A DNA stretch of 64,000 bases from NCBI GenBank assembly GCA_965219575.1, contig OZ244779.1, positions 1,800,352 to 1,864,351 on the forward strand, given 5' to 3'. Below are positions 285-60,641 of the stretch, piece after piece. Each line of letters begins with the position of its first letter. Positions within the stretch are counted from its first letter, which is position 1. Below the pieces are notes generated by a model. It was not told the origin of the DNA. It made no database searches and saw only the letters and a program-made list of their open reading frames with translations. The translations under genes and the position numbers were made by a program. This DNA is from Candidatus Oxydemutatoraceae bacterium (GTDB lineage Bacteria; Pseudomonadota; Gammaproteobacteria; Poriferisulfidales; Oxydemutatoraceae).

Positions 285-3200
285 CTACTGGAGCGGACCC
301 TCTAAAAATACTTTGGCGCGTATCCTAATAGCTGAAGCAGTGACATCCACCGACACAGTCTCACTATCGCTTAACCCGCCGCTATCGGTGGCGGTGAAGG
401 TAATCGTTGCTTCTCCTTCTTGCTCGGCACTAATCACAAAGGTTGTAATCGTATCCGTGGTTATATCGGCAGCTTGCACCGGTGTTACCGAAACAATCGT
501 TCGGCTCGACGACATCGCCTCCAATGTAACAATATCGTCCAAATTGAAATTATCATCCGCTACCAAGACAGCGATTTGAGCCGCACTATTGACCGGTAGC
601 GTTTGCGCCGATGACGGTGTAATCATAATCGTCGGTGTAGTATTCGCCTCCACTCGTACTTCAAATTGTGCCGAGACCTCCGAGTTTGCTACACCTCTGT
701 CGTCGTTCACCGTCACCGTAATCACCGCACGACCGGCACCGACACCGCTAACCTCAAGCGTACGGGTGGCATCGTCGGTTGCGATAATCGTTGCGGTTGC
801 AATCATACTATCGCCGGTATTAATTCTTACACTGAGGCTATCGTCGGCATCGGCATCGTTTATCGCAACATCAAACTCGGTACTCAAACCTTCCAACAAC
901 CTAATCGGTTGCTCGGGAATACCGCTCAGCGTCGGTGCCGTATTGACACGCACCACTAGCTCTACACTATCGCTTAACCCACCGCGGTCGGTTGCGGTGA
1001 AGGTAATCGTCGCTTCTCCGCCTTGCTCGGCACTAATCCTAAAGGTTGTAATCGTATCCGTGGTTATATCGGTAACTTGCGCCGGTGTCACCGATATAAT
1101 CGTTTGGCTTGACGACATTGCCGCCAGTGCGACAATATCATTCAAATCGAAATTGCTATCCGTAACCGAGACGATGGTATCGGTCGTGGTATTGACCGGT
1201 AGCGTTTGCGCCGATGACGGTGTAATCATAATCGTCGGTGTAGTGTTCGCTTCGACTTGTACTTCAAACTCTGCCGAGACCTCCGAGTTTGCTACACTTC
1301 TGCCGTCATTTACCGTCACCGTAATCGTTGCTTCGCCCTCACCGACACCGCTAACCTCAAGCGTACGGGTGGCATCGTCGGTTGCGATAATCGTTGCGGT
1401 TGCAATCATGCTATCGCTGGTATCAATTCGTACATTGAGGCTATCGTCGGCATCGGCATCGTTTACCGCAACAGAAAGCTCGGTACTCAAACCTTCCAAC
1501 AACCTGATGGGTTGCTCGGGAATACCGCTCAGCGTCGGTGCCGTGTTGACACGCACCGCTAGTTCTATACTATCGCTTAACCCGCCGATGTCGGTTGCGG
1601 TGAATGTAATCGTCGCTTCTCCGCCTTGCTCGGCACTAATCCTAAAGGTTCTACTCGTATCCGTCGTTATATTAGCAACTTGCACCGGTGTCACCGAAAC
1701 AATCGTTCGGCTTGACGACATTGCCGCTAATGTGACAATATCATTCAAATCGAAATTGCTATCCGTAACCGAGACGATGGTATCGGTCGTGCTATTGACC
1801 GGTAGCGTTTGCGCTGATGACGGTGTAATCATAATCGTCGGTGTAGTATTCGCCTCCACTCGTACTTCAAATTGTGCCGAGACCTCAGAGTTTGCTACAC
1901 CTCTGTCGTCATTCACCGTCACCGTAATCACCGCACGACCGGCACCGACACCGCTAACCTCAAGCGTACGGGTGGCATCGTTGGTTGCGATAATCGTTGC
2001 GCTCGCAATCATGCTATCGCCGGTATCAATTCTTATACTGGGGCTGTCATCGGCATCGGCATCGTTTACCGCAACAGAAAGCTCGGTACTCAAACCTTCC
2101 AACAACCTGATGGGTTGTTCGGGAATACCGCTCAGCGTCGGTGCCGTATTGACACGCACCGCTAGTTCTACACTATCGCTTAACCCGCCGATGTCGGTTG
2201 CGGTGAATGTAATCGTCGCTTCTCCGCCTTGCTCGGCACTAATCCTAAAGGTTCTACTCGTATCCGTCGTTATACCGCCAGTTTGCGTTGATGTCACCGA
2301 AACAATCGTTCGGCTTGACGACATTGCCTCCAGTGTGACGATATCGTCCAGATTGAAATTATCATCCGCCACCGAGACAACGATAGCCGCCGTGCTATTG
2401 ATTGGTAGCGTTTGCGCTGTTGATGGTGTAATCATAATCGTCGGTGTAGTATTCGCTTCCACTTGCACTTCAAATTGTTCCGAGATCCTTGAATTTGCTA
2501 CACCTCTGCCGTCATCCACCGTCACCTTAATCGTTGCCTCACCCTCACCGACACCGACAACCTCAAGTGTGCGGGTGGCATCGTCGGTTGCGATAATCGT
2601 TGCGGTTGCAATCATGCTATCGCTGGTATCAATTCTTACATTGAGGTTATCGTCTGCATCGGCATCGTTTATCGCAACATCAAACTCAGTACTCAAACCT
2701 TCCAATAATCTGATGGGTTGCTCGGGAATACCGCTCAGCGTCGGTGCCGTATTCACACGCACCGCTAGCTCGGCATGAGCACTCAAGCTGTTTCGGTCGG
2801 TTGCGGTGAATCTAATCGTCGCTTCTCCGCCTTGCTCGGCATTCAGCACGAAGCGCACACTCGTATCGGTCGTTATGTCGGCAATGCGCGCCGGCATCAC
2901 CGAGACCACCGATGGGGTTGACGATACCGCCGTCAATGTAACAACATCGTCCAAATCGAAATTGCTGTCCGCAACCGAGACGATGGTATCGGTCGTGCTA
3001 TTGACTGGTAGCGTTAGTGCCGATGACGGTGCAAGCAATAACGTTGGAACGGTATTCTCTTCCACCGTCACATCAAACACCAAAGAAGCCGTTGCATTGG
3101 CTTCGCCGGTGCCGTCATCCACCGTTGCGGTAATCATCGTCTCACCGGCACGCTCTCCGCTAATCGTAAGCATGCGGGTGGTTCCGTCCCCGCTAATCAT

Positions 3201-6200
3201 TGCGCTTGCAATCGTATCGTCGGTGGAGGTGACTTCTACATTCAATGTACTGCCGTCCCTATCGTCCACCGACACCGGCACCATGATTAGCTCTCCCTCC
3301 AACAATGTGATATTGGTGTCTTGGGAGTCATCAACCCTAATCGTCGGTGTCGTGTTTTGTCCCAGCCTCGCACCTAGATTCGACGAGTATACACTCCTCG
3401 TATAGTCTTGCAAGTCGGTATACGCTATCCGCACACGGAACCTGTCGCCTGGGCTTACTTCATGGTCTTGAGGTGCCGATAACGTGGTCGGAACATCGTA
3501 GGAAATCTCAATATCGCCTAAAGTGCCACTCTGCCCGGCAATGTCTTCCCAACCCGAACCGTCACCCTCATCTATCAGACAATTCCTGTTGAGACTTCCT
3601 AGACACTGTTGCCAGTGATAGGTCATAGTTCCGCTCACGCCACCGTCGGTCTCACCCGTCGCATCTATGCCGGTAAAGATTAATATTGTCTCGGTCGTAG
3701 ATCTGGTGAGGTCATTTATCGACACCACGCCATTATCTTCCTTGTTCACCACTATCGCGTACACTCCTGTCGTAGTAGTCGCCCCGTCGCTCACTTCCAC
3801 CACAAAGCTCGCCGTCGCCGTAGTAGCAGTTGCGTCGGTCACAAAGTAGTCGCGAATAGTTAACGGTGCCGTCTCTCCCGACACATCGGCTTCGTCGGCA
3901 TTGATGCTACTCACACGCCAACGATAGCTTAAGTTGTCGAAGTTCTCGTCGGAAGCCTCGGCAGTCATCCTCACCATGCCACCTTCGCTCACCGGTGAAG
4001 GTGCGACATTAACCAGCGTAATCGTCGGTGCAATGTTCGGTACCGTATACACATCGGATTGCGTCGTCACCAATTGTCCGATGTTATCTACAACCGTTGC
4101 CTCCAGCCTATAGCGTGTGCCGGCGGTTCGCGACGGTCTATCGTAGGGGATGCGATATTCATTCTCGGTTGCACCGTCTATCAAAGTGTTGTTAATGAAC
4201 CACCGATAGCTCGTCGACGTAATCCCGTTGGCATCGGCGAGCGTTGAAGTCGTACTCAGCTGCCATCTATCGTCGCTGTCCGGTTCTATGCGTACAGCAC
4301 CGGTCAGCGGGGCATCTACCACTAGTGTGAAGCTCGCCTGCACGCGACCACCTCTGCCGTCATCCGCCGAGACTCTCACGATGGATCCTGCCGCGGTTTG
4401 GCTGGCATCGGCATTGGTTGCCGTGAAGGTCCATACACCGGTCATGGTGCTGAAGTTGCCTATCAAGCCACTCATCGGTTCTATTGCAATATCGTGTGTC
4501 AATGTGTCGCCGTCGGCATCGCTGAAGAAGTCGCTGATATCTCGTTCAAACGGCTCGCCGACCGTTGCGATAATAGCTCGAATCGGCACCCGAGGTGTCG
4601 GTGGAGTATTGACAGCTACCTCCAAAGTACGACTACTGCTTAAATCTGTGCCATCTGTTGCGGTCACTTTGATTTCCGCTATACCCGCTTTGTTCGCTCT
4701 CAGTGCCAAGGTTACACGGGTATCCGACCCGATATCGCCAATCCGCTCCGGCATCACCGATACGATCGTTCGGCTCGACGATGCTGCCGTCAATGTGATA
4801 CGATCGCCGAAGCTAAAATTACCATCCGATACACTAATCACTAGGTGTGCGGTGCTGCCCAGTTGTATCGGCTGTTCAGGTGTGGCAACAATCTCAAGTG
4901 CCGGGGCCACGGTGCCCCCCACCTGCACCGTAAATTGTGCCGAGACCTCCGAGTTCGCTACACCTCTGCCGTCGTTCACCGTCACGGTAATCGTCGTATT
5001 GCCGGCACCGACACCGACAATCTCAAGCGTGCGGACATTACCGGTGGTTGCGATAATCGTTGCGGTTGCAATCATGCTGTCGCTACTATCAATTCTTACA
5101 CTGAGACTATCTTCGGCATCGGCATCGTTTATCGCAATATCAAATTCGGTACTCAAACCTTCCAACAACCTGATGGGTTGCTCGGGAATACCGCTCAGCG
5201 TCGGTGCCGTATTGACACGCACTGGTATTTCTACACTATCGCTTAACCCACCGCGGTCGGTTGCGGTAAATGTGATTGTCGCTTCTCCGCTTCGCTCGGC
5301 ACTAATTATAAAGGTTGTAATCGTATCCGTGGTTATATCGGCAACTTGTGTCGGTGTCACCGAAACAATCGTTCGGCTTGACGACATCGCCTCCAGTGCG
5401 ACGATATCGTCCAAATTGAAGTTATCATCCGCCACCGAGACGAATATATGAGCCGTACTATTGATTGGTAGCGTTTGAGCCGATGACTGTGTAATCATAA
5501 TCGTCGGTGTAGTGTTCGCTTCCCGGGGGCTAATCATATAAATAGTAACCTCGCGATCGGCTTCGGTGACCGTGATGACTAATGCGGTGTTTGCATCTAT
5601 AGGAATAGGCTCGCTTCGCCCGTCGCCACCTTGGTTTGCAAAATAATCGGTATCCTCGCCTTGTCTAACTATTTTGATCGTCGCATCGGTATTATAGGCT
5701 TTTAATCGCAGGGTGATGTCACTAGTCCTAAAAGCAAAAAAACTTACAACATAATGGGCGGTTGTAGCCCCGAAAATTGGGGTCAATCTTGCACCGTGTG
5801 TCAATACTTCTAAATCTCTTAGACCTACGCCTTGACCCGACAACAAAATATCGCTATCCGCAGATTTGAGGATCGGATATTGGATGCTAGTACCGAAATC
5901 CCAGTCGCCGGTACTCCAGCCACTATATATCCCGGTTGCCGTTGTCGGTGATTGCAGTTCCACTAGGGTTTGCGTTGAACTGTTTGTGATAGTAGGAGAA
6001 CCAGAAGAAGAACCGACTAAGGTGTTAAAACCCGTCGCATAGCTATTCGTGATGGAACCACTAAAATACCAACCAACTAATCCGCCTACCCTGCGACCCC
6101 CTGATAAAACAGAACCCGTGGCATAGCTGTTCATGATGGAACCAACAGAATTTAAACCGACTAAACCACCTACATTATTATTTGCTTCAACAGAACCCAT

Positions 6201-9200
6201 CGCATAGCTATTCGTGATAGCACCCTGAGAATTATAACCGACTAAACCGCCTACCTCACTACTCCCTGAAACAGAACTCGTCGCATAGCTGTTCGTGATA
6301 GTGCCTCTATTAAAACCGACTAAACCGCCCACACTACTCCCTGAAACAGAACCCGTCGCATAGCTGTTCGTGATAGTACTACCAATATTCTCACCGACTA
6401 AACTACCTACATTAGAACCCCCAATAATGTCTACATTTAGCAAACCAACATTAGCGATTTCAGCATCACTGTTCGTATAACCAAACAAGCCTATGTTCCT
6501 CGTACCACTTCTGTCAATCCTAAGATTAGAAATCGTAAAACCATTGCCTTCAAACCTGCTTCTGAAAGCATTAGAAGAAGAATCCCCAAGCGGCTGCCAA
6601 CCTGCTCTCGTAGTCCATGTAATCCTATTGACTGTTGAGCTATAGCTGTCATCGTCGTTAAAATCTAAATCTCTCATCAATTCATAGCCCATGCATATAT
6701 CATTAGGACAACCCTCGGTGCTTCCCGTCGCCGTCTCGGCGGTTGCCCTATAGCTCGTGCCGTCCAGTTGAAAGCGGATTGCATTTAAGGTTTCTAAATC
6801 GTTGATATCTATCAGCCCGTTGCCATCGGCATCTACGGCGGTACTCGCTTCCATTGGTGCCGTATTGACCCGCACCAATAATTCTACACTATCGCTTAAC
6901 CCGCCGCTGTCGGTGGCGGTGAATGTGATCGTCGCTTCTCCACCTTTCTCGGCACTAATCATAAAGGTCGTACTCGTATTCGTGGTTATATTAGTAACTT
7001 GCACTGGTGTCACCGAAACAATCGTTCGGCTTGACGACATCGCTTCCAATGCAACTATATCGTCCAAATTGAAGTTATCATCCGCCACCGAGACAACGAT
7101 ATGAGCTGTACTATTGACCGATAGCGTTTGAGCCGATGACGGTGTAATCATAATCGCCGGTGCAATGTTCGCTCCTACTTGAGGGCTAACCATATGAATA
7201 CTAATCATATAAATAGTGGTTCCGGCATCGGCTTCGGTGACCGTAATGACTAATGTAGTGTTTGCGTTTATAGGAATAGGCTCGCTTCGCCCATCACTGC
7301 CCTTGTTTTCAAAATAATCGGTATCCTCGCCTTGTTTAACTACCTTAATCACCGCACCAGCATTATAGGCTTTCAATCGAAGGCTGATGTCGCTCGTCCC
7401 GGAAGCAAGAAAACTTATAACATAATGGGTCGTTGTCGCCCCGAAAATCGGGCTCAATCTTGTACCGGATGTCAATACTTCTAAATCTCTTAGACCTACG
7501 CCTTGACTCGACAACAGAATATCGCTATCTGCAAATTTGAGGATTGGATATTGGATACTAGTACCGAAATCCCAGTCATCGGTACTCCAGTTATAGTATA
7601 TATCACTGGAGGTACTGCTCGTGTCGGTCGCTACTTGCAATTGCTGTGTAGTTGCACCCCTACCACCGGAACTTGTCTGTATTCCGCTGGTACTTATATC
7701 CCAGTAGCTGTTTGTGATTGTGCCGTCATTATCACCAACTAAACCGCCTACACGACCACCTCCTGAAACAGAACCCGTCGCATAGCTGTTCATGATGGTG
7801 CCTCCATTATAACCAACTAAACCGCCGACGGAGAAATTACCACTCGCTGAAACAGAACCCGTCGCATAACTGTTCGTGATTATGCCTTGATTTCGACCGA
7901 CTAAACCGCCTACAATGAAATCTCCAGGAACAGAACCCGTTGCATAGCTGTTCATGATGGTGCCGTCATTCCAACCGACTAAACCGCCTGCATTGCCATC
8001 CCCTGGAACAGAACCCGTCGCATAGCTGTTCATGATGGTGCCATTCAAATTATAACCGACTAAACCGCCTGCATTGCCGTCCCCTGAAACAGAACCCGTC
8101 GCATAGCTATTCGTGATGGTACCGTCATTCCAACCGACTAAACCGCCAGCACTCGCACTATCACTCTCTAAAACAAAACTCGCCGCATAGCTGTTCGTGA
8201 TTGTGCCACCACTATTCCGACCGACTAAACCGCCTGCAGTGCGGGTCCCTGAAACAGAACCCGTCGCATAGCTGTTCGTGATAATACCGTCATTCCAACC
8301 GACTAAACCGCCTACATTGGAAGCACCCATGATATCTACATTTAACAAACCAACATTAGCAATTTCGGCACTACCTCCCGTAGAACCGAACAAACCTATG
8401 TTGCTTGTGCCACTTCTGTCAATCATAAGATTAGAAATCGTGAAACCGTTGCCTTCAAACTGACCGCTGAAAGCATTAGAGAGAGAATTCCCAATCGGCT
8501 GCCAACCGGCTCCCGTAGTCCATATAATTCTGTTGGCTATTGAACTATAGCTGCCATCTTCGTTAAAGTCTAAATCTCTCGTCAATTCATAGCCTCTGCA
8601 TCCGTTATTAGGGCAACCCATCGAAACCTTAGGCACCGTCTCACTCTCTCTATAGCCCGTCCCGTCCAGTTGATAACGCATCGCATTCAGTCTCTCTAAG
8701 TTATCAACCTCTATCAAACCATCGTCATCCCTATCGACATCTCCGTTAAACTCATAATAATTAAGGTAGAGAGTATAAGTAATAGTCTGTGTTGTTTCAC
8801 CACCATTCTCAACCTCAATGGTGATTGTAGTTATCCCGTCTGTGTTTAACGAAATCATACCACTTTCATCACCACTAGCTATGGCTGGACTTCTAGTTTC
8901 TTCATCAGCCGTAATATAAACCTTGGCACCGGGATTTAATGTTATCGGTCTGAATTGTATTGTGCTGGCACTACTAACTACCGTCCCTCTGTAGTTCGGC
9001 ACTACCACATCAAAATCAGGCGACAGATTACCCTCCACTAATTGCAATTCACTCAAACCATATCTAAGTGCAGGCGACAACAAGCTACCGCAGACAGGTA
9101 AATCTGTTGTAGTATCGCCCACACGACGACATTCGCTAATATCTGTGTTAGGATTATCCGTATATTTGAGCACCGGGTATTGGACGCTAGTGCCGAAATC

Positions 9201-10178
9201 CCAGTCATCGGTACTCCAGTTATAGTATATCTCGGCAGAGGTGCTGCCCGGACCAGTTGCTGCTTGCAGTTCTACCGTGGTTTGACTCGTGCCACCGGCA
9301 CTTGTCTCTATTCCACTGCTATTTATATCCCAATAGCTGTTTGTAGTAGTTCCGAAATTACGACCAACTAAACCGCCTACATTATCACCGCTCCCTGAAA
9401 CAGAACTCGTTGCATAGCTGTTCGTGATGATGCCACCATTCTCGCCGACTAAACCGCCTACACCGAAATCTCCTGAAACAGAACCCGTCGCATAGCTGTT
9501 CGTGATGATGCCACCATTCTCGCCGACTAAACCGCCTACACCGAAATCTCCTGAAACAGAACCCGTCGCATAGCTGTTCGTGATGGTGCCTCTATTCTCA
9601 CCGACTAAACCGCCTACACTATTATTTCCTGAAACAGAACCCGTCGCATAGCTGTTCGTGATGGTGCCTCTATTCTCACCAACTAAACCACCTATCTGAT
9701 TTCTCCCTTCAACAGAACCCGTCGCATAGCTGTTCGTGATGGTGCCTCTATTCTCACCGACTAAACCGCCTACCCTATCGCTAAAACCTCCTATTATATT
9801 TACATTTAATAAACCCAGATTAGCAATTTCAGCACTACTTCCCGTATGACCAAACAAGCCTATTTCACTCGTGTCACTTCTGTCAATCCTAAGATTAGAA
9901 ATCGTAAAAACGTTGCCTTCAAACTTGCCTCTGAAAGCATTAGAAGAATCCCCAATCGGCTGCCAACCTGCTCCCGTAGTCCATGTAATCCTATTAGCTA
10001 TAGAACCATAACTGCCAGCGTCGTTAAAGTCTAAATCTCTCGTCAGTTCATAGCCTCTGCATCCGTCATTAGGGCAACCTGTCACAACTTTAGGTGCCGC
10101 CTCGCTCTCTCTATAGCCCGTCCCGTCCGGTTGATAACGTATCGCATTCAGTCCCTCTAAATCATCAATCTCTATCAA
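285..10178 (-). CDS. Giant repetitive surface/adhesin protein, 3' (C-terminal) portion. It was cut off from its 5' portion by an IS insertion. It contains dockerin-like Ca-binding segments, GLUG-type GGLVG Gly-rich repeats, cadherin-like beta-sandwich domains and about 12 tandem Ig-like domains. This fragment has no signal peptide of its own.
   Basis: 3297-aa ORF. It has repeated DxDGNGLIDINDLExLNAIRYQxDG segments and many VGGLVGxNxGTITNSYATGSVSG units. LSPALRYGL...TYTLYL domains match the cadherin-like beta-sandwich pattern. A ~202-aa module at the C-terminus is repeated five times nearly identically. The upstream frame continues without interruption into the IS target duplication at 10219-10226. 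Confidence 0.85.
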   Translation of the reverse strand: MIEIDDLEGLNAIRYQPDGTGYRESEAAPKVVTGCPNDGCRGYELTRDLDFNDAGSYGSIANRITWTTGAGWQPIGDSSNAFRGKFEGNVFTISNLRIDRSDTSEIGLFGHTGSSAEIANLGLLNVNIIGGFSDRVGGLVGENRGTITNSYATGSVEGRNQIGGLVGENRGTITNSYATGSVSGNNSVGGLVGENRGTITNSYATGSVSGDFGVGGLVGENGGIITNSYATGSVSGDFGVGGLVGENGGIITNSYATSSVSGSGDNVGGLVGRNFGTTTNSYWDINSSGIETSAGGTSQTTVELQAATGPGSTSAEIYYNWSTDDWDFGTSVQYPVLKYTDNPNTDISECRRVGDTTTDLPVCGSLLSPALRYGLSELQLVEGNLSPDFDVVVPNYRGTVVSSASTIQFRPITLNPGAKVYITADEETRSPAIASGDESGMISLNTDGITTITIEVENGGETTQTITYTLYLNYYEFNGDVDRDDDGLIEVDNLERLNAMRYQLDGTGYRESETVPKVSMGCPNNGCRGYELTRDLDFNEDGSYSSIANRIIWTTGAGWQPIGNSLSNAFSGQFEGNGFTISNLMIDRSGTSNIGLFGSTGGSAEIANVGLLNVDIMGASNVGGLVGWNDGIITNSYATGSVSGTRTAGGLVGRNSGGTITNSYAASFVLESDSASAGGLVGWNDGTITNSYATGSVSGDGNAGGLVGYNLNGTIMNSYATGSVPGDGNAGGLVGWNDGTIMNSYATGSVPGDFIVGGLVGRNQGIITNSYATGSVSASGNFSVGGLVGYNGGTIMNSYATGSVSGGGRVGGLVGDNDGTITNSYWDISTSGIQTSSGGRGATTQQLQVATDTSSTSSDIYYNWSTDDWDFGTSIQYPILKFADSDILLSSQGVGLRDLEVLTSGTRLSPIFGATTTHYVISFLASGTSDISLRLKAYNAGAVIKVVKQGEDTDYFENKGSDGRSEPIPINANTTLVITVTEADAGTTIYMISIHMVSPQVGANIAPAIMITPSSAQTLSVNSTAHIVVSVADDNFNLDDIVALEAMSSSRTIVSVTPVQVTNITTNTSTTFMISAEKGGEATITFTATDSGGLSDSVELLVRVNTAPMEASTAVDADGNGLIDINDLETLNAIRFQLDGTSYRATAETATGSTEGCPNDICMGYELMRDLDFNDDDSYSSTVNRITWTTRAGWQPLGDSSSNAFRSRFEGNGFTISNLRIDRSGTRNIGLFGYTNSDAEIANVGLLNVDIIGGSNVGSLVGENIGSTITNSYATGSVSGSSVGGLVGFNRGTITNSYATSSVSGSSEVGGLVGYNSQGAITNSYAMGSVEANNNVGGLVGLNSVGSIMNSYATGSVLSGGRRVGGLVGWYFSGSITNSYATGFNTLVGSSSGSPTITNSSTQTLVELQSPTTATGIYSGWSTGDWDFGTSIQYPILKSADSDILLSGQGVGLRDLEVLTHGARLTPIFGATTAHYVVSFFAFRTSDITLRLKAYNTDATIKIVRQGEDTDYFANQGGDGRSEPIPIDANTALVITVTEADREVTIYMISPREANTTPTIMITQSSAQTLPINSTAHIFVSVADDNFNLDDIVALEAMSSSRTIVSVTPTQVADITTDTITTFIISAERSGEATITFTATDRGGLSDSVEIPVRVNTAPTLSGIPEQPIRLLEGLSTEFDIAINDADAEDSLSVRIDSSDSMIATATIIATTGNVRTLEIVGVGAGNTTITVTVNDGRGVANSEVSAQFTVQVGGTVAPALEIVATPEQPIQLGSTAHLVISVSDGNFSFGDRITLTAASSSRTIVSVMPERIGDIGSDTRVTLALRANKAGIAEIKVTATDGTDLSSSRTLEVAVNTPPTPRVPIRAIIATVGEPFERDISDFFSDADGDTLTHDIAIEPMSGLIGNFSTMTGVWTFTATNADASQTAAGSIVRVSADDGRGGRVQASFTLVVDAPLTGAVRIEPDSDDRWQLSTTSTLADANGITSTSYRWFINNTLIDGATENEYRIPYDRPSRTAGTRYRLEATVVDNIGQLVTTQSDVYTVPNIAPTITLVNVAPSPVSEGGMVRMTAEASDENFDNLSYRWRVSSINADEADVSGETAPLTIRDYFVTDATATTATASFVVEVSDGATTTTGVYAIVVNKEDNGVVSINDLTRSTTETILIFTGIDATGETDGGVSGTMTYHWQQCLGSLNRNCLIDEGDGSGWEDIAGQSGTLGDIEISYDVPTTLSAPQDHEVSPGDRFRVRIAYTDLQDYTRSVYSSNLGARLGQNTTPTIRVDDSQDTNITLLEGELIMVPVSVDDRDGSTLNVEVTSTDDTIASAMISGDGTTRMLTISGERAGETMITATVDDGTGEANATASLVFDVTVEENTVPTLLLAPSSALTLPVNSTTDTIVSVADSNFDLDDVVTLTAVSSTPSVVSVMPARIADITTDTSVRFVLNAEQGGEATIRFTATDRNSLSAHAELAVRVNTAPTLSGIPEQPIRLLEGLSTEFDVAINDADADDNLNVRIDTSDSMIATATIIATDDATRTLEVVGVGEGEATIKVTVDDGRGVANSRISEQFEVQVEANTTPTIMITPSTAQTLPINSTAAIVVSVADDNFNLDDIVTLEAMSSSRTIVSVTSTQTGGITTDTSRTFRISAEQGGEATITFTATDIGGLSDSVELAVRVNTAPTLSGIPEQPIRLLEGLSTELSVAVNDADADDSPSIRIDTGDSMIASATIIATNDATRTLEVSGVGAGRAVITVTVNDDRGVANSEVSAQFEVRVEANTTPTIMITPSSAQTLPVNSTTDTIVSVTDSNFDLNDIVTLAAMSSSRTIVSVTPVQVANITTDTSRTFRISAEQGGEATITFTATDIGGLSDSIELAVRVNTAPTLSGIPEQPIRLLEGLSTELSVAVNDADADDSLNVRIDTSDSMIATATIIATDDATRTLEVSGVGEGEATITVTVNDGRSVANSEVSAEFEVQVEANTTPTIMITPSSAQTLPVNTTTDTIVSVTDSNFDLNDIVALAAMSSSQTIISVTPAQVTDITTDTITTFRISAEQGGEATITFTATDRGGLSDSVELVVRVNTAPTLSGIPEQPIRLLEGLSTEFDVAINDADADDSLSVRINTGDSMIATATIIATDDATRTLEVSGVGAGRAVITVTVNDDRGVANSEVSAQFEVRVEANTTPTIMITPSSAQTLPVNSAAQIAVLVADDNFNLDDIVTLEAMSSSRTIVSVTPVQAADITTDTITTFVISAEQEGEATITFTATDSGGLSDSETVSVDVTASAIRIRAKVFLEGPLQ
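290..3400. repeat. Near-identical tandem DNA repeats, period about 606 bp and about 5 copies, inside the giant adhesin gene. More diverged copies continue to about 5500.
   Basis: Antisense ORFs at 666-959, 1257-1562 and 1872-2165 are near-identical and spaced about 606 bp apart. The protein shows 5 copies of a 202-aa unit. Confidence 0.8.
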
Positions 10179-10226: not shown

Positions 10227-10979
10227 GGTACTTGACTAGTTTAGGGACAAAATCCCACTCAAATATCCCTTACCATCTTCATTAGCATATCATACTTTTG
10301 GGAGGCTGAAAGGTGCCTGTGATTGAATCGCCACTCGCATTCTTTTAGATGAAGATGGAAATGTTTTCTCGACACGCCGCAGAACTTTGTTAATCTCCTT
10401 TTTGCCCATCCCCAAAAGTTTTCAATGCCATTGATATGTCTAGTACCACTGCCCAGTGTCTTTGAATGATTGATGCGGTAGTGTTTGTATCCATTCAACA
10501 CCAACCCGCCATAAGCTCTCCATTTGTCTGTGTATATAGTACTCTGATGTCCCACTAAACGCTTGATAATAGGTCGTATCCCGCTCTTTGAAGCATTTCG
10601 TATCACCTGCGTATAGACCTTCCCATCTCTTTTTAATATGCCGAATACCGGTACTTTGTTCGGTGCACCTCTACCTCTTTTGTCTCCCTTTTTGCGACCA
10701 CCGAAGTAGGACTCATCCAACTCTACCTCGCCGGAGAATACGCTCGTCTTCTCGCAGTGTTGTGCAATTCTTTCTCGGATTATATTGACATATCTATTCA
10801 CTGTATTTCTATTGACCCCGGCTGCTTGTGCGATTTGGGTTGCACTCAAATCAAGGGCAAAATACCTTACAATTTGCCTTATTTTCCTGTTTGAAATATG
10901 TGCCCCTCTAAAATGCCTGTTAGGTGTTGTCATTACTAGTTATTTTATCAAATCGTACTCCCTAAACTAGTCAAGTACC
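10227..10979 (-). mobile_element. IS1595-family insertion sequence, 753 bp. It has perfect 21-bp terminal inverted repeats GGTACTTGACTAGTTTAGGGA. An 8-bp target-site duplication TAATTAAG lies at 10219-10226 and 10980-10987.
   Basis: The inverted repeats were read directly at 10227-10247 and 10959-10979. The flanking 8-mer is identical on both sides. The single internal ORF is an IS1595-type transposase. Confidence 0.9.
10259..10933 (-). CDS. IS1595-family (ISXO2-like) transposase
   Basis: 224-aa protein with an N-terminal HTH region (ATQIAQAAGVNRNTVNRY). It carries the characteristic YTDKWRAYGGL and INGIENFWGWAKRRL motifs of IS1595 transposases. Confidence 0.85.
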   Translation of the reverse strand: MTTPNRHFRGAHISNRKIRQIVRYFALDLSATQIAQAAGVNRNTVNRYVNIIRERIAQHCEKTSVFSGEVELDESYFGGRKKGDKRGRGAPNKVPVFGILKRDGKVYTQVIRNASKSGIRPIIKRLVGHQSTIYTDKWRAYGGLVLNGYKHYRINHSKTLGSGTRHINGIENFWGWAKRRLTKFCGVSRKHFHLHLKECEWRFNHRHLSASQKYDMLMKMVRDI

Positions 10980-13264
10980 TAATTAAGATACAAAGTATAA
11001 ATAACAATCTGTGTTGTTTCACCACCATTCTCAACCTCAATGGTGATTGCAGTTATCCCGTCGGTGTTTAACGAAATCATACTACTCTCATCACCACTAT
11101 CTATAGCTATACCTCTAGCTTCTTCATCAGCCCTAATATAAACCTTGGCATCGGGATTTACTGTTATTGGTCTGAACCGGATTGTGCTTGTACTATGAAC
11201 TACCGTTCCTCTGTAGCTCGGCAATATCACATCAAAATCAGGCAATAAATCGCCTTCCACTAATTGCAATTCACCCAAACCATACCTCAGTGCAGGCGAC
11301 AACAAACTACCACAGACAGGTAAATCTGTTGCAGTATCACTTACACTACGACATTCGCTAATATCCGTGTTAGGATTATCCGTATATTTGAGCACCGGGT
11401 ACTGGCTATCAGTGCCGAAATCCCAATTCGTGTTACTCCATTCGTAATAGGGTTTGCCGGGGTCTGTGCCTTGTGCACTTTCTGCTTTCAATTCCACCGT
11501 GGTTTTACTCGTGCCACCGTCACTTATCTTTATTCCGCTGGTATTTATATCCCAGTAGCTACTCGTGATAGTACCATCATTATTCCGACCGATTAAACCG
11601 CCTACACCATTACTCCCTTCAACAGAACCCGTCGCATAGCTGTTTGCGATGGCACCACTAAAATAATTCTGACCGACTAAACCGCCTGCATTGCCGTCCC
11701 CTGAAACAGAACCCATCGCATAGCTGTTCGTGATGGTACCGCCGTTCTCACCGACTAAACCGCCTACATTAAAACGATCCCCAATAACAGAACCCGTCGC
11801 ATAGCTGTTCGTGATATTGCCGCCCCTATTACCACCGACCAAACCGCCTACATAGTCATCTCCTGAAACAAAACCCGTCGCATAGCTGTTCGTGATATTG
11901 CCGGCACTATTATCACCGACTAAACCGCCTACACGACCACTCCCTGAAACAGAACTCGTCGCATAGCTGTTCACGATGGTGCCGCCGTTCTCACCGACTA
12001 AACCGCCGAAACCGAAGATATCGAAGAAACCGCGAAGATCACTACTCCCTGAAACAGAACCTGTCGCATAGCTGTTTGTGATGGTGGCACCAAAACGATT
12101 CCGGCCGACTAAACCGCCAAAACCGGCTAAACGACCGAAACCGCCGAAATCGAAGAAATCGCGAAGATCACCACTCCCTGAAACAGAACCCGTCGCATAG
12201 CTGTTCACGATGGTGCCGCCGTTCTCACCGACTAAACCGCCGAAACCGACTAAACCGCCGAAACCGACTAAACCGCCGAAATCGCGAAGATTACCACTCC
12301 CTGAAACAGAACCCGTCGCATAGCTGTTCGTGATAGTGCCACCGTCATTCCTACCGACTAAACCGCCGAAACCGACTAAACCGCCGAAATCGAAGAAATC
12401 GCGAAGATTACCACTCCCTGAAACAGAACCCGTCGCATAGCTGTTCGTGATAGTGCCACCGTCATTCCTACCGACTAAACCGCCTACACTGCTACTCCCT
12501 AAAACAGAACCCGCCGCATAGCTGTTCGTGATTGTGCCACCGTCATTCCTACCGACTAAACCGCCTACACTGCTACTCCCTAAAACAGAACCCGTCGCAT
12601 AGCTGTTCGTGATTGTGCCGCCATTCTCACCGACTAAACCGCCTACCCCATTGCTAAAACCTCCGATTATATTTACATTTAGTAAGCCCAAATTAGCGAT
12701 TTCAGCACCACCGTCCGTACGACCAAACAAGCCTATTTGACCTGTGCCACCTCTGGCAATCGTAAGATTAGAAATCGTAAAATCGTTGCCTTCAAACCAA
12801 CCGCTGAAAGCATTAGAAAAGTCCCCGATCGGCTGCCAACCTGCTCCCGTAGTCCATATAACCTTGTTAGCTGTTGAACTATAGCTGTCATCGTCGTTAA
12901 AATCTAAGTTTCTTTTCAATTCATAGCCTCTGCAGATATCATTAGGGCAGCCTTCAGTAATCCCCGTCGCCCCGGCGGTTGCTTTATAGCTGGTGCCGTC
13001 CGGTTGAAAGCGGATTGCATTTAAGGTTTCCAAATCGTTGATATCTATCAGCCCGTTGCCATCGGCATCTACGACGGTATTAGTTTGAGCAACTATGTTC
13101 GTGCTGAATAGTGCGAGTAGAATAATCAACAAGAGGGTTTTCATGGAAATTATATATATTGTAAATACTGGGATTGTACAGCCAATATGCACACATGGGA
13201 CTGTTGAAAAAGTACCGCTCTGCACGAATTCAACCGCTTTTCGCCACATAATTATCCAACCCAC
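10979..13264 (-). CDS. Giant adhesin, 5' (N-terminal) portion. It has a Sec signal peptide, a dockerin-like segment, GLUG-type repeats and a cadherin-like beta-sandwich domain. It is terminated by a stop codon created at the IS junction.
   Basis: The N-terminus MKTLLLIILLALFSTNIVAQT looks like a signal peptide. Its architecture matches the modules of the 285-10178 fragment. The stop codon TAG spans the target duplication and the first base of the IS inverted repeat. Confidence 0.85.
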   Translation of the reverse strand: MGWIIMWRKAVEFVQSGTFSTVPCVHIGCTIPVFTIYIISMKTLLLIILLALFSTNIVAQTNTVVDADGNGLIDINDLETLNAIRFQPDGTSYKATAGATGITEGCPNDICRGYELKRNLDFNDDDSYSSTANKVIWTTGAGWQPIGDFSNAFSGWFEGNDFTISNLTIARGGTGQIGLFGRTDGGAEIANLGLLNVNIIGGFSNGVGGLVGENGGTITNSYATGSVLGSSSVGGLVGRNDGGTITNSYAAGSVLGSSSVGGLVGRNDGGTITNSYATGSVSGSGNLRDFFDFGGLVGFGGLVGRNDGGTITNSYATGSVSGSGNLRDFGGLVGFGGLVGFGGLVGENGGTIVNSYATGSVSGSGDLRDFFDFGGFGRLAGFGGLVGRNRFGATITNSYATGSVSGSSDLRGFFDIFGFGGLVGENGGTIVNSYATSSVSGSGRVGGLVGDNSAGNITNSYATGFVSGDDYVGGLVGGNRGGNITNSYATGSVIGDRFNVGGLVGENGGTITNSYAMGSVSGDGNAGGLVGQNYFSGAIANSYATGSVEGSNGVGGLIGRNNDGTITSSYWDINTSGIKISDGGTSKTTVELKAESAQGTDPGKPYYEWSNTNWDFGTDSQYPVLKYTDNPNTDISECRSVSDTATDLPVCGSLLSPALRYGLGELQLVEGDLLPDFDVILPSYRGTVVHSTSTIRFRPITVNPDAKVYIRADEEARGIAIDSGDESSMISLNTDGITAITIEVENGGETTQIVIYTLYLN
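12229..12282. repeat. In-frame 18-bp microsatellite, unit accgactaaaccgccgaa, three copies here encoding (GGLVGF)n. Shorter tracts of one or two copies lie nearby.
   Basis: Direct tandem copies are seen in the DNA. The protein reads DFGGLVGFGGLVGFGGLVGENGG. Confidence 0.75.
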
Positions 13265-32004: not shown

Positions 32005-32160
32005 CACCATTTTCTCCCATTGATTAAAAATTGTAAATAGTTCTTGTGCACACAATCTCGCAATATTAGCCGATATCAAAGCCCAAGAATTCATTATCCG
32101 ATGAACGGTTGTATTTGAGTATATAAAAGGTGCTCGACGGTTGGATTATGCAGTAATACG
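32005..32160 (-). promoter_or_regulatory. Upstream element E, copy A. It lies 5' of the methyltransferase gene.
   Basis: About 85% identical over about 145 nt to 53495-53640. It contains a gtgcac-centred palindrome. Confidence 0.5.
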
Positions 32161-32235: not shown

Positions 32236-32408
32236 TACCAATGTGTGGGACGGACAAGCTAGGGCTTGTCCTCACAGGTATAGAGCGGTAGAGGTTTGCA
32301 TATCCGACACTGTACATGACGCAATGATTGTTTAATTTATCGTTGCACTTAATTTTAAGTTAAAGTATATAATTGCATGCACACAAAGAGAGCTAAAAAT
32401 CTGTTCAA

Positions 32409-59267: not shown

Positions 59268-60641
59268 ATGAATAAAGATAAAGTAATTTCTATCGAAGCC
59301 CTTTATCGATTGCATCTAAAAAAATATGATTATCGAGTAGATCCTGCACAGCTAAAGATCGTCGCTCATCTACAAACTATATCGGATCAACTGAATACCC
59401 CGGCACCGAAAAAAACCTGGGCAAGCCGGCTGAAGTCTAAAAATAATCGCCGTCTCTCGGAAACTCGGCCTATCCGAGGGCTTTATTTAAGGAATTATAT
59501 ACTTAAATACATAACTGATCAATGAAAGCTATATAAATCAGGGGTTATTTAAGGTTTTATTTATTTTAATTTTGTGACACAATGATACATAAATAACCTA
59601 TGGAGATAAAAAGAGGTGTTGCTAAAGCCTACCCTGATCGCACAAAGCATTAGAACAAAAACCCCACAAATAAGGAACTAAATACTCGCTTTAAGCTAGA
59701 GAAGCGAGAGTGATTTATGTATTTAAGTATATAATTCCCTTTATTTATGGGGCGGCGTCGGCAGAGGTAAGACCTATATGCTCGATTTTTTCTACGAAGT
59801 GTTGTCGGTCGATAAAAAACGACGGCTTCATTATTACCAATTCATGCAGGAGGTTCACGATTCTCTGAAAAAATTAACGAAGCAAAAAAATCCTTTGAGA
59901 ATTATTGCCGAAGACTTGGCCGGTCGAGTGCGGGTATTATTCTTGGACGAGTTTTTTGTATCCGACATCACCGATGCAATGATCCTTTATCGCTTACTTG
60001 CCGCTTTATTCGAATGTCAAATCGTGCTCCTCACTACCTCTAATTTTGCGCCCGAAGACTTATATAAAGACGGTTTGCAGCGTGCGCGTTTTTTGCCGGC
60101 CATTGCGTTGATAGAGCGTCATACCGAAGTCGTGGCAATGCAGACAGGTGTTGATTATCGCTCGCTACATATCAAAAATTCCGGTAGCTATCATGTGCCT
60201 TACAACGAACGATCGGAGGCTTTAATGAGACAGTGTTTCACTGCGCTCGATTGCGGAAATGCCGATAGCAATCGCTCTATAGAGATAAACGATCGCAACA
60301 TCAAGGTGGTGATGCGCGCACCCGATGTCGTTTGGTTCGAGTTCGAAGAGCTTTGTCAAACACCGCGCTCGGTAGCCGACTATATTATGATCGCACGCCT
60401 CTACCATACCGTTTTAATATCCGGAGTTCCGATATTCAACCACCGAGACGATGCGGCTCGCCGCTTCATACAACTGGTCGACGAGTTCTACGATAAAAAT
60501 GTAATCCTGGTGCTATCGGCACAAGCGCAGGCTCGCGAGCTATATCGAGCAGGTCGTTTGAGATTTGAGTTCGATAGAACCGTTAGCCGACTCTTGGAAA
60601 TGCAAAGTTTGAAATACTGGTCTAATGCCCGCACCCGATAG
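59268..60641 (+). pseudogene. zapE: Cell division protein ZapE (AFG1-like ATPase), interrupted by a 250-bp MITE. The insertion lies between the codons for RGLYL and WGGVGRGKT.
   Basis: 59268-59525 encodes the ZapE N-terminus up to RGLYL. 59739-60641 encodes LYLWGGVGRGKTYMLDFFY... in frame. The first ATG after the insert (59778) lies downstream of the P-loop. Confidence 0.85.
59489..59738. mobile_element. MITE of about 250 bp, AT-rich, with no ORF. It has perfect 24-bp terminal inverted repeats GGAATTATATACTTAAATACATAA. A 9-bp target-site duplication CTTTATTTA lies at 59480-59488 and 59739-59747.
   Basis: The inverted repeats were read at 59490-59513 and 59715-59738. The flanking 9-mers are identical. 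The element sits inside an otherwise contiguous zapE reading frame. Confidence 0.85.

What the first reader, a model, noticed from the sequence alone, without database searches (positions are those of the whole stretch)
59268..60641. zapE disrupted by a 250-bp MITE with 24-bp inverted repeats and a 9-bp target duplication
Removing 59489-59747 restores ...RPIRGLYLWGGVGRGKTYMLDFFYEVL..., a canonical ZapE P-loop region. The insert has perfect inverted repeats GGAATTATATACTTAAATACATAA and their reverse complement. It has a duplicated CTTTATTTA. It has no ORF and is about 75% AT. The upstream fragment terminates 11 codons into the MITE. The first ATG after it lies downstream of the Walker A codons. 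So functional ZapE is unlikely. The MITE appears to be a single copy in this window. Its autonomous partner is unknown.
Basis: seen in the sequence. Interest (0 to 1): 0.6.

Follow-up and report, generated by a model that had tools for sequence, protein, structure and literature searches.

The report
Small transposon remnant splits zapE gene
A 250-base non-autonomous copy (MITE) of a 1,348-base IS1595-family insertion sequence, whose intact copies appear to sit in the same genome, has very recently landed just before the ATP-binding codons of the cell-division gene zapE and knocked it out; this is ordinary transposon mutagenesis, unusually well documented.

Summary
Perfect 24-nt inverted repeats lie at 59491-59514 and 59715-59738. 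In-silico excision restores a 371-aa ZapE (Pfam AFG1_ATPase, E 1e-121).

A sister genome (L001) has the empty site. Its zapE is 1116/1116 nt identical to the excised window gene, so the insertion is very recent and polymorphic.

The "unknown" partner was found. It is a 1,348-bp IS1595-family insertion sequence (L015, L016) with identical inverted repeats and a 319-aa zinc-ribbon + DDE transposase. The insert equals IS 1-121 plus IS 1219-1348, an internal 1,097-bp deletion. Three intact transposase variants appear to lie on the window's own 2.37-Mb contig.

- The true target duplication is 8 bp (TTTATTTA), not 9.
- The element is 59490-59739.
- AT content is 70%, not 75%.
- Excising the stated 59489-59747 is one base too many.

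ZapE is inactivated. The upstream piece is an 85-aa stub, and the downstream ORF starts after the Walker A motif.

In a near-identical strain (L014), a transposase-bearing fragment of the same IS abuts the same 8-mer in a scrambled arrangement. This is unexplained.

Verdict: a new member of a known kind, of modest interest.

The parts
59268..59489 (+). zapE 5' fragment (codons 1-74). As it stands, the ORF runs on into the insert to the stop at 59523-59525, giving an 85-aa product.
   Evidence: It is identical to the first 222 nt of the intact zapE in L001. The exact 85-aa product is on record as P0242.
59482..59489 (.). Left copy of the 8-bp target-site duplication TTTATTTA.
   Evidence: the empty site GGGCTTTATTTATGGGG in L001. 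The 8-bp length is fixed by the full-length copies in L015 (AAATTTTT) and L016 (CTAATCTC).
59490..59739 (+). 250-bp MITE: an internally deleted copy of a 1,348-bp IS1595-family insertion sequence. The given strand is the transposase-sense orientation.
   Evidence: BLAST against the L015 IS: MITE 1-121 matches IS 1-121 at 97.5%, and MITE 120-250 matches IS 1217-1348 at 94.7%. It is absent from L001. GC is 30.1% (computed over 59490-59738) against 46.8% for the window.
59491..59514 (+). Left terminal inverted repeat (the transposase-proximal end). The element's terminal base at 59490 is A, as in the L015 copy.
59490..59610 (+). Left arm: the inverted repeat plus the 5' untranslated leader, ribosome-binding site and first transposase codons (ATGGAGATAAA) of the parent IS.
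   Evidence: The deletion junction lies in the A-run GATAAAAAGAGG, a 2-nt microhomology.
59611..59739 (+). Right arm: the last ~130 bp of the parent IS. It includes the 3' part of the IS's small 52-aa ORF, a hairpin at 59685-59708, and the right inverted repeat.
59715..59738 (-). Right terminal inverted repeat. The terminal base at 59739 is C on the + strand, which reads as G on the element's end.
59740..59747 (.). Right copy of the 8-bp target-site duplication TTTATTTA.
59748..60641 (+). zapE 3' fragment (codons 75-371 plus the stop). The Walker A codons GGVGRGKT lie at 59751-59774. The only usable start is ATG 59778, giving a 287-aa ORF that lacks Walker A.
   Evidence: The 287-aa product is on record as P0243. 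The Walker A motif as defined for E. coli ZapE comes from PMC3958796.

Best explanation
Window 59490-59739 is a non-autonomous, internally deleted copy (MITE) of a 1,348-bp IS1595-family insertion sequence.

The parent IS has 24-25-bp terminal inverted repeats (G/A)GGAATTATATACTTAAATACATAA. It encodes a 319-aa transposase with a zinc-ribbon and an IS1595-type DDE domain, followed by a small 52-aa ORF. It makes 8-bp target duplications.

The MITE keeps IS positions 1-121 (repeat, leader, first transposase codons) and positions 1219-1348 (tail and repeat). It has lost the 1,097 bp between them, with the junction in an A-run.

It sits in the 8-mer TTTATTTA at zapE codons 72-74, three nucleotides upstream of the Walker A codons. 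This leaves an 85-aa N-terminal stub and a downstream ORF that can only start after the P-loop. ZapE ATPase function is therefore lost in this genome.

The event is very recent and polymorphic. A sister genome has the unoccupied site and a nucleotide-identical zapE.

What is shown: the anatomy, the parentage, the 8-bp duplication, the empty site and the disruption of the reading frame.

What is inferred:
- The 250-bp element arrived already deleted, moved in trans by transposase from the intact copies that appear to lie on the same 2.37-Mb contig. The alternative is deletion in place after a full-length insertion.
- The loss of ZapE is tolerated because ZapE is conditionally dispensable.
For: - Inverted repeats and duplication.
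- Restored ZapE: Pfam E 1.2e-121.
- Empty site in L001: the BLAST segments overlap by exactly the duplicated bases, and zapE is 1116/1116 nt identical.
- Parent IS in L015: inverted repeats 24/24 identical, arms 97.5% and 94.7% identical, 8-bp duplication AAATTTTT.
- Second copy in L016: 98.6% identical, 25-bp perfect repeats, 8-bp duplication CTAATCTC.
- Transposase family: precomputed PF12760 + PF12762; NCBIfam NF033547 'IS1595 family transposase', 194 bits, profile positions 1-214 of 215.
- Three distinct intact 319-aa variants (P0246, P0366, P0370) are listed with longest contig 2,369,097 bp. The exact window products P0242 and P0243 have the same longest-contig length.
- IS1595 family features in the literature: 8-bp duplications, a single transposase gene, an N-terminal zinc finger (PMC8101967).
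- ZapE: Walker A GGVGRGK84T; not essential under standard laboratory conditions in E. coli (PMC3958796).
Against: - Only one copy of the 250-bp form is known. I could not search the rest of the source genome, so the defining MITE property of repeated, trans-mobilised copies is untested.
- The arms differ from the two sequenced IS copies by 10-11 of ~252 positions, and those two copies differ from each other by 8. The direct donor copy is therefore not identified.
- That the transposase variants lie on the same contig as the window is inferred from equal contig length, not read from the DNA.
- In a near-identical strain (L014), a transposase-bearing fragment of the IS abuts the same 8-mer. Some relation between the two alleles cannot be excluded.
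Confidence: 0.9

Rival explanations
1. In-place decay. A full-length 1,348-bp IS inserted into zapE, and 1,097 bp were later deleted on the spot by slippage in the A-run. On this reading the 250-bp element never transposed as a MITE and may be unique.
For: - Only one copy of the 250-bp form is known.
- The deletion junction has A-run microhomology.
- A near-identical strain (0 mismatches in 10.5 kb of flanks) has a transposase-bearing fragment at the same 8-mer.
- The divergence of the arms from IS copies (10-11 of ~252) is only a little above the divergence between IS copies (8 of ~252).
Against: - It needs two rare events in the very short time in which zapE accumulated 0 substitutions in 1,116 nt.
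- The L014 fragment is in the opposite orientation. Its left arm is identical to the L016 copy (0/121) but differs from the MITE at 5 of 121 positions, so it is not the MITE's precursor.
- In L014 the left side of the site is in the empty configuration.
Confidence: 0.17
2. The insert belongs to a family that makes 9-bp duplications (IS4, the IS903 group of IS5, IS1, or IS256). On this reading the element is 249 bp with a 9-bp duplication.
For: - A perfect 9-nt direct repeat CTTTATTTA flanks the insert.
- In one MAG, a related end lies next to IS256-like transposase genes (L007).
Against: - Two full-length copies with identical inverted repeats have 8-bp duplications that cannot be extended to 9 (L015 AAATTTTT; L016 CTAATCTC).
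- They encode an IS1595-family transposase.
- Related elements also show 8 bp: L002 AAAATTTT, with its empty site in L007, and L003 AGTTATAA.
- In L005 the related end is followed by different sequence, so it is separable from the IS256-like element.
Confidence: 0.02
3. Assembly artefact or chimera. The insert is not present in any real chromosome.
For: - The window comes from a metagenome-type assembly.
- The allelic contig L014 (3x coverage) is visibly scrambled at this site and carries homopolymer indels.
Against: - The insert has exact inverted repeats, an exact target duplication and a clean deletion junction.
- It has element-specific substitutions relative to every available IS copy. 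Misassembly does not produce these.
- The same two truncated products are on record from a 2.37-Mb contig held by both NCBI and ENA.
Confidence: 0.02

Closest known systems
IS1595-family insertion sequences (zinc-ribbon-bearing groups; possibly the ISNwi1 group, whose end consensus I recall from ISfinder as ggnnatTAT, unverified here)
   Same: - The parent element has a single DDE transposase with PF12762 and an N-terminal PF12760 zinc ribbon, and matches NCBIfam NF033547.
- Its ends begin with GG, and it makes 8-bp target duplications.
- These are the family features given in PMC8101967.
   Different: - The window element lacks the transposase entirely.
- The specific IS (1,348 bp, 25-bp repeats GGGAATTATATACTTAAATACATAA, with an extra conserved 52-aa ORF) was found only in unnamed metagenome assemblies.
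- I could not check it against ISfinder. The subgroup assignment rests on memory.
IS1595-family MITE of Haloquadratum walsbyi related to ISHwa6 (165 bp, inverted repeats 25, direct repeat 8, 7 copies; Table 4 of PMC3852290)
   Same: It is a short non-autonomous element with ~25-bp inverted repeats and 8-bp duplications, derived from an IS1595-family IS.
   Different: - The host domain differs, and no sequence relation was tested.
- That one is a multi-copy family. Here only one copy is known.
- Here the deletion breakpoints relative to the parent are mapped to the base.
Eukaryotic Merlin transposons and their MITEs
   Same: They share the DDE_Tnp_IS1595 catalytic domain, terminal 5'-GG, and 8-9-bp duplications (PMC8101967).
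   Different: They are eukaryotic, related to the IS1016 group, and lack the zinc ribbon. There is no direct relation to this element.
Gene-disrupting bacterial MITEs in general (e.g. Neisseria Correia elements, Acinetobacter MITE-Aba12; from my own knowledge)
   Same: They are small, AT-rich elements bounded by inverted repeats that interrupt or re-wire genes, and some carry outward promoter-like sequences.
   Different: They have different parent families and duplication lengths. Here the outward promoter-like match is no better than chance.

Membership tests
MITE derived from an IS1595-family insertion sequence | Terminal inverted repeats identical or near-identical to those of a transposase-encoding IS of the family. 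| tested here: met
   Both 24-nt repeats are 24/24 identical to those of the L015 and L016 elements. Those elements encode a 319-aa PF12760 + PF12762 / NF033547 transposase.
MITE derived from an IS1595-family insertion sequence | Target-site duplication of the family's length (8 bp). | tested here: met
   TTTATTTA flanks 59490-59739. The empty site is in L001. The 8-bp length is fixed by the parent copies. The family value comes from PMC8101967.
MITE derived from an IS1595-family insertion sequence | Small size and no transposase gene. | tested here: met
   The element is 250 bp. Only a 17-codon fusion ORF remains. IS positions 122-1218, which include all but the first codons of the transposase, are absent.
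MITE derived from an IS1595-family insertion sequence | Subterminal sequence homologous to the parent (a deletion derivative). | tested here: met
   Left arm 118/121 and right arm 125/132 identical to the L015 IS.
MITE derived from an IS1595-family insertion sequence | Several dispersed copies with different target duplications, as evidence of mobilisation in trans. | not testable with these tools
   There is one copy in the 64-kb window. The 2.37-Mb source contig could not be fetched. Scans of the species-representative genomes and of JGI metagenomes found no other copy of the interior.
MITE derived from an IS1595-family insertion sequence | An autonomous partner in the same genome. | tested here: met
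   P0246, P0366 and P0370 (three intact 319-aa variants) are listed with the same 2,369,097-bp longest contig as the window's own products P0242 and P0243. That they share one contig is inferred from the equal length.
ZapE / AFG1-like ATPase (the interrupted gene) | Full-length match to the AFG1_ATPase family, with Walker A GxxGxGKT. | tested here: met
   After excision, PF03969 E 1.2e-121 over profile positions 5-358 of 361. GGVGRGKT is identical to the E. coli ZapE motif (PMC3958796). Relatives are named ZapE by their sources.
ZapE / AFG1-like ATPase (the interrupted gene) | An uninterrupted reading frame in this genome. | tested here: not met
   The gene is split into an 85-aa ORF and a 287-aa ORF. 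No in-frame start retains Walker A.

The most novel reading that the evidence does not exclude
The 8-mer TTTATTTA just upstream of the zapE P-loop codons may be a preferred landing site for this IS1595-family element. It appears to have been hit twice independently in one strain background: by the 250-bp MITE in the window, and by a transposase-bearing copy, in the opposite orientation and now scrambled, in L014.

Three alleles (empty, MITE, IS fragment) would then coexist in a host-associated population. That would mean ongoing transposition with either strong site targeting or selection for loss of ZapE.

The same end sequence also bounds a 351-bp MITE-like element in a Nitrosopumilaceae archaeon MAG. 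This would point to movement of the element family across domains.
Probability: 0.3. Interest if true: 0.45.

Novelty: new member of a known kind. Interest (0 to 1): 0.3.

Why it matters
This is a cleanly resolved natural example of how a MITE arises and acts.
- The parent IS, the exact deletion breakpoints, the empty site and the resulting null allele are all in hand.
- zapE shows zero substitutions since the event.
- It shows active IS1595-family transposition and gene inactivation in progress in an uncultured gammaproteobacterium.
- It flags zapE, a conditionally dispensable FtsZ-associated ATPase, as a gene that is polymorphic for loss in this population.

It does not reveal a new kind of element or mechanism.

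Tried and rejected
1. **Rfam scans.** The region at permissive threshold and the whole window at gathering threshold gave no RNA family, and there are no tRNAs. The insert is not a known structured RNA or intron.
2. **Inverted-repeat 20-mer in species-representative genomes.** There were six loci sharing only the ends, not the interior. The L002 element (1,457 bp, IS1595 family) and relatives in L010-L012 share only the first 12-15 end nucleotides, so they are cousins, not the partner.
3. **Same 20-mer in JGI metagenomes.** One solitary end, L008, which was uninformative.
4. **The 753-bp IS at window 10227-10979.** It is also IS1595 family, but its repeats are different (GGTACTTGACTAGTTTAGGGA), so it is not the partner.
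5. **P0135, a 287-aa ZapE homologue.** It looked like a second truncated zapE in a related species. The L013 DNA shows an intact full-length ORF, so it is a mis-called start.
6. **Exact look-ups of the window's 85-aa and 287-aa products, and of P0370.** All returned 'not on record', although the cluster table lists them. The source contig could therefore not be fetched.
7. **Outward promoter in the left repeat** (TTGATC-17-TATAAT on the minus strand). The number of such matches in the region is below the shuffle expectation, so I make no claim.
8. **Repeat-like 17-mers at window 32110-32126 and 32357-32373.** Not significant (E 0.15), and treated as chance.
9. **ISfinder subgroup consensus.** The Siguier et al. 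FEMS review was not held, so the ISNwi1-group suggestion stays a recollection.

Full report
**Observation.**
GGAATTATATACTTAAATACATAA lies at 59491-59514, and its reverse complement at 59715-59738. There are no other matches in the window even with three mismatches, and none are expected by chance. CTTTATTTA occurs at 59481-59489 and 59739-59747.

Joining 59268-59489 to 59748-60641 gives a 371-aa protein reading ...RPIRGLYLWGGVGRGKTYMLDFFYEVL.... It matches Pfam AFG1_ATPase over positions 5-358 of 361 with E 1.2e-121.

As it stands, the upstream ORF ends 11 codons into the insert. Downstream there is an in-frame TAA at 59724, and the first start after it is ATG 59778, which lies past the Walker A codons.

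Small corrections:
- The stretch to excise is 59490-59747 (258 nt). The stated 59489-59747 is one base too many.
- The insert is 30% GC, i.e. 70% AT, against 46.8% GC for the window.

**Empty site.**
The MiaA protein encoded next door is found unchanged on a 1.28-Mb contig of ENA assembly ERZ25070844 (L001). There, a 371-aa AFG1_ATPase gene is called in the place of zapE.

Aligning the two shows GGGCTTTATTTATGGGG uninterrupted in L001. The two BLAST segments overlap by exactly the duplicated bases.

The window's zapE, once excised in silico, is identical to L001's at all 1,116 nucleotides. The surrounding 6.3 kb carries 21 substitutions. The insertion is therefore real, recent and polymorphic, and zapE has not decayed since.

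**What the insert is.**
The cluster that holds the intact ZapE also holds the window's two fragments as called proteins: P0242 (85 aa, ending RNYILKYITDQ) and P0243 (287 aa). Both are on a 2,369,097-bp contig held by NCBI and ENA. The cluster also holds a third, differently broken allele.

That third allele (L014, ENA ERZ25072152) carries a truncated IS1595-family transposase gene. Its upstream leader and end are the reverse complement of the left ~120 nt of the window insert.

Searching with that transposase gave a 319-aa full-length protein, P0246, at 97% identity. Its locus L015 holds a complete 1,348-bp insertion sequence:
- Both 24-nt inverted repeats are identical to the window's.
- MITE positions 1-121 match IS 1-121 (118/121).
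- MITE positions 120-250 match IS 1217-1348 (125/132).

The window element is thus the IS minus positions 122-1218. This deletion runs from the fourth transposase codon to the middle of a small 52-aa ORF downstream of the transposase. The junction lies in an A-run.

A second copy (L016, from ERZ25070844) is 98.6% identical to the first and has perfect 25-nt repeats.

The transposase carries Pfam PF12760 (zinc ribbon) and PF12762 (DDE_Tnp_IS1595). It matches NCBIfam NF033547 'IS1595 family transposase' at 194 bits over the whole profile.

**Eight base pairs, not nine.**
L015 is flanked by AAATTTTT and L016 by CTAATCTC. Neither can be extended to nine. In both, the element includes one more base at each end than the 24-nt repeat: A or G on the transposase side, and G on the other.

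Applied to the window, the element is 59490-59739 (250 bp) and the duplication is TTTATTTA (59482-89 and 59740-47). The ninth matching C arises because the base before the target happens to equal the element's last base.

Eight bp is the IS1595 family value (PMC8101967). Related elements elsewhere also show it: L002 AAAATTTT, with its empty site in L007, and L003 AGTTATAA.

**Partner in the same genome.**
The 90% cluster of P0246 has nine members. Three distinct intact 319-aa variants (P0246, P0366, P0370) are listed with longest contig 2,369,097 bp, the same length as for the window's own fragments.

I infer that at least three intact copies lie on the window's source chromosome. I could not fetch that DNA.

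The window itself has no copy of this IS. Its other IS, a 753-bp IS1016-like element at 10227-10979, has unrelated repeats.

**Consequence.**
E. coli ZapE is an ATPase with Walker A GGVGRGK84T. It is not essential under standard conditions but is needed without oxygen or above 37 C (PMC3958796).

Here the identical motif is cut off from its start codon. The gene yields at most an 85-aa stub and a 287-aa product without the P-loop.

zapE converges on miaA and diverges from the DAO-family gene, so no downstream gene is polar-affected. A promoter-like match facing out of the left repeat is no better than chance.

Relatives at 64-84% identity all have full-length ZapE with the motif.

**Did it arrive as a MITE?**
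The arms differ from the two IS copies at 10-11 of ~252 positions, and those copies differ from each other at 8. Seven differences are private to the MITE.

This fits a separate non-autonomous lineage. It does not exclude a recent deletion from an unsampled third copy.

One-step mobilisation in trans is more parsimonious than insertion plus deletion within a time too short for any zapE substitution. However, only finding further copies with the same junction would settle it. I put the in-place alternative at about 0.17.

**The third allele (unexplained).**
L014's flanks have no substitutions against the window over 10.5 kb, only homopolymer indels. It is therefore essentially the same strain. 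The contig has 3x coverage.

Its zapE reads as follows:
- zapE 1-286;
- a 40-nt filler derived from IS ~1011-965;
- zapE 293-352;
- IS 777 down to 2, in reverse orientation;
- C, then zapE 215 to the end.

The right-hand junction (...AATTCCC|TTTATTTATGGGG) is identical to the window's. However, the interior next to it is the transposase-side arm, in the opposite orientation to the MITE. That arm is identical to the L016 copy (0/121) and differs from the MITE at 5 of 121 positions.

Candidate explanations are an independent, one-ended or abortive insertion at the same 8-mer (a hot spot), homology-facilitated illegitimate recombination with an intact allele, or a chimeric low-coverage contig. 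I could not decide between them.

zapE contains 20 pure-A/T 8-mers and the window 670, so sharing the same site by chance is unlikely.

**Wider distribution.**
The 20-nt end occurs in only a handful of other genomes:
- Four loci of one Gammaproteobacteria MAG (CATOTD01), where a 58-64-bp unit bearing it is interrupted by other insertion sequences.
- One further gammaproteobacterial MAG (L006).
- A complete 351-bp MITE-like element with an 8-bp duplication in a 2.1-Mb contig labelled Nitrosopumilaceae archaeon (L003).

None of these shares the window element's interior.

**Comparison with what is known, and novelty.**
MITEs derived from IS1595-family elements are already described. An example is a 165-bp element with 25-bp repeats and 8-bp duplications in Haloquadratum walsbyi (PMC3852290).

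This is a new member of that kind, in an uncultured gammaproteobacterium whose closest named ZapE relative is a Chromatiales MAG at 65% identity. The mechanism is ordinary.

The value lies in the completeness of the record and in the possible site preference at zapE.

Noticed in passing
window 10227-10979 (flanking ORFs 285-10178 and 10979-13264, minus strand): A 753-bp IS1016-like member of the IS1595 family splits what looks like one giant (>4,000 aa) repeat protein gene; the homologous products in L009 carry weak/faint Pfam Glug hits. The IS has a 224-aa transposase without a zinc ribbon (NF033547), perfect 21-bp repeats GGTACTTGACTAGTTTAGGGA, and an 8-bp duplication TAATTAAG. The same insertion is present in ENA ERZ25072152 (L009, 99.97% identical).
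   Followed up: partly
L014 6200-7200 (ENA ERZ25072152 ctg50883_3x_l): This is a third zapE allele in an essentially identical strain. It has a duplicated zapE segment (nt 214-352), a 40-nt filler derived from the IS interior, and IS positions 777-2 in reverse orientation. The IS fragment abuts the same TTTATTTA as the window's MITE. It may be a hot spot, an abortive transposition product, or a low-coverage chimera.
   Followed up: partly
L003 6798-7148 (CBDCOI010000001.1, MAG labelled Nitrosopumilaceae archaeon): A 351-bp element with no long ORF, bounded by GGGAATTATATACTTAAGTAC... / ...GTATTTAAGTATATAATTCCC and an 8-bp duplication AGTTATAA. It has the same ends as the bacterial IS, but in an archaeal genome. 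The interior is unrelated.
   Followed up: partly
L002 6018-7545, L004 7550-7640, L005 7854-7911, L007 4025-4090 (CATOTD01 Gammaproteobacteria MAG): A 58-64-bp unit starting with the same end sequence recurs at least four times. In L002 and L004 it is followed by a 1,457-bp IS1595-family IS (complete in L002, cut off by the locus end in L004) with ends GGGAATTATATATTT and duplication AAAATTTT. It lies next to IS256-like transposase genes in L007. That genome is dense with nested insertion sequences: the L002 transposase cluster has 47 member sequences.
   Followed up: partly
L010 1133-3330, L011 1201-3333, L012 1131-3330: Relatives of the L002 transposase (75-81% identity) are followed by an N6/N4 DNA methyltransferase gene that overlaps the transposase stop by 4 nt. 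In L010 and L012 this lies behind a GGGAATTATATACTTGACTCC end. These look like IS1595-family elements carrying a passenger gene.
   Followed up: no
L015 2554-2712 and L016 2254-2412: A lysine-rich 52-aa ORF just downstream of the transposase gene is called in both full-length IS copies. The MITE keeps only its 3' part. Its function is unknown.
   Followed up: no
window 59464-59478: A 5-bp GC-rich hairpin (CTCGG-CCTAT-CCGAG) lies inside zapE, 3 nt upstream of the target 8-mer. Together with the T-rich target it scores as terminator-like. It could contribute to site choice.
   Followed up: no
L013 2249-3364 (ENA ERZ21861969 ctg21141l): zapE of a related species (about 75% nucleotide identity) is recorded as a 287-aa protein (P0135). 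The DNA encodes an intact full-length ORF, so this is a gene-caller start error, not a second pseudogene.
   Followed up: yes
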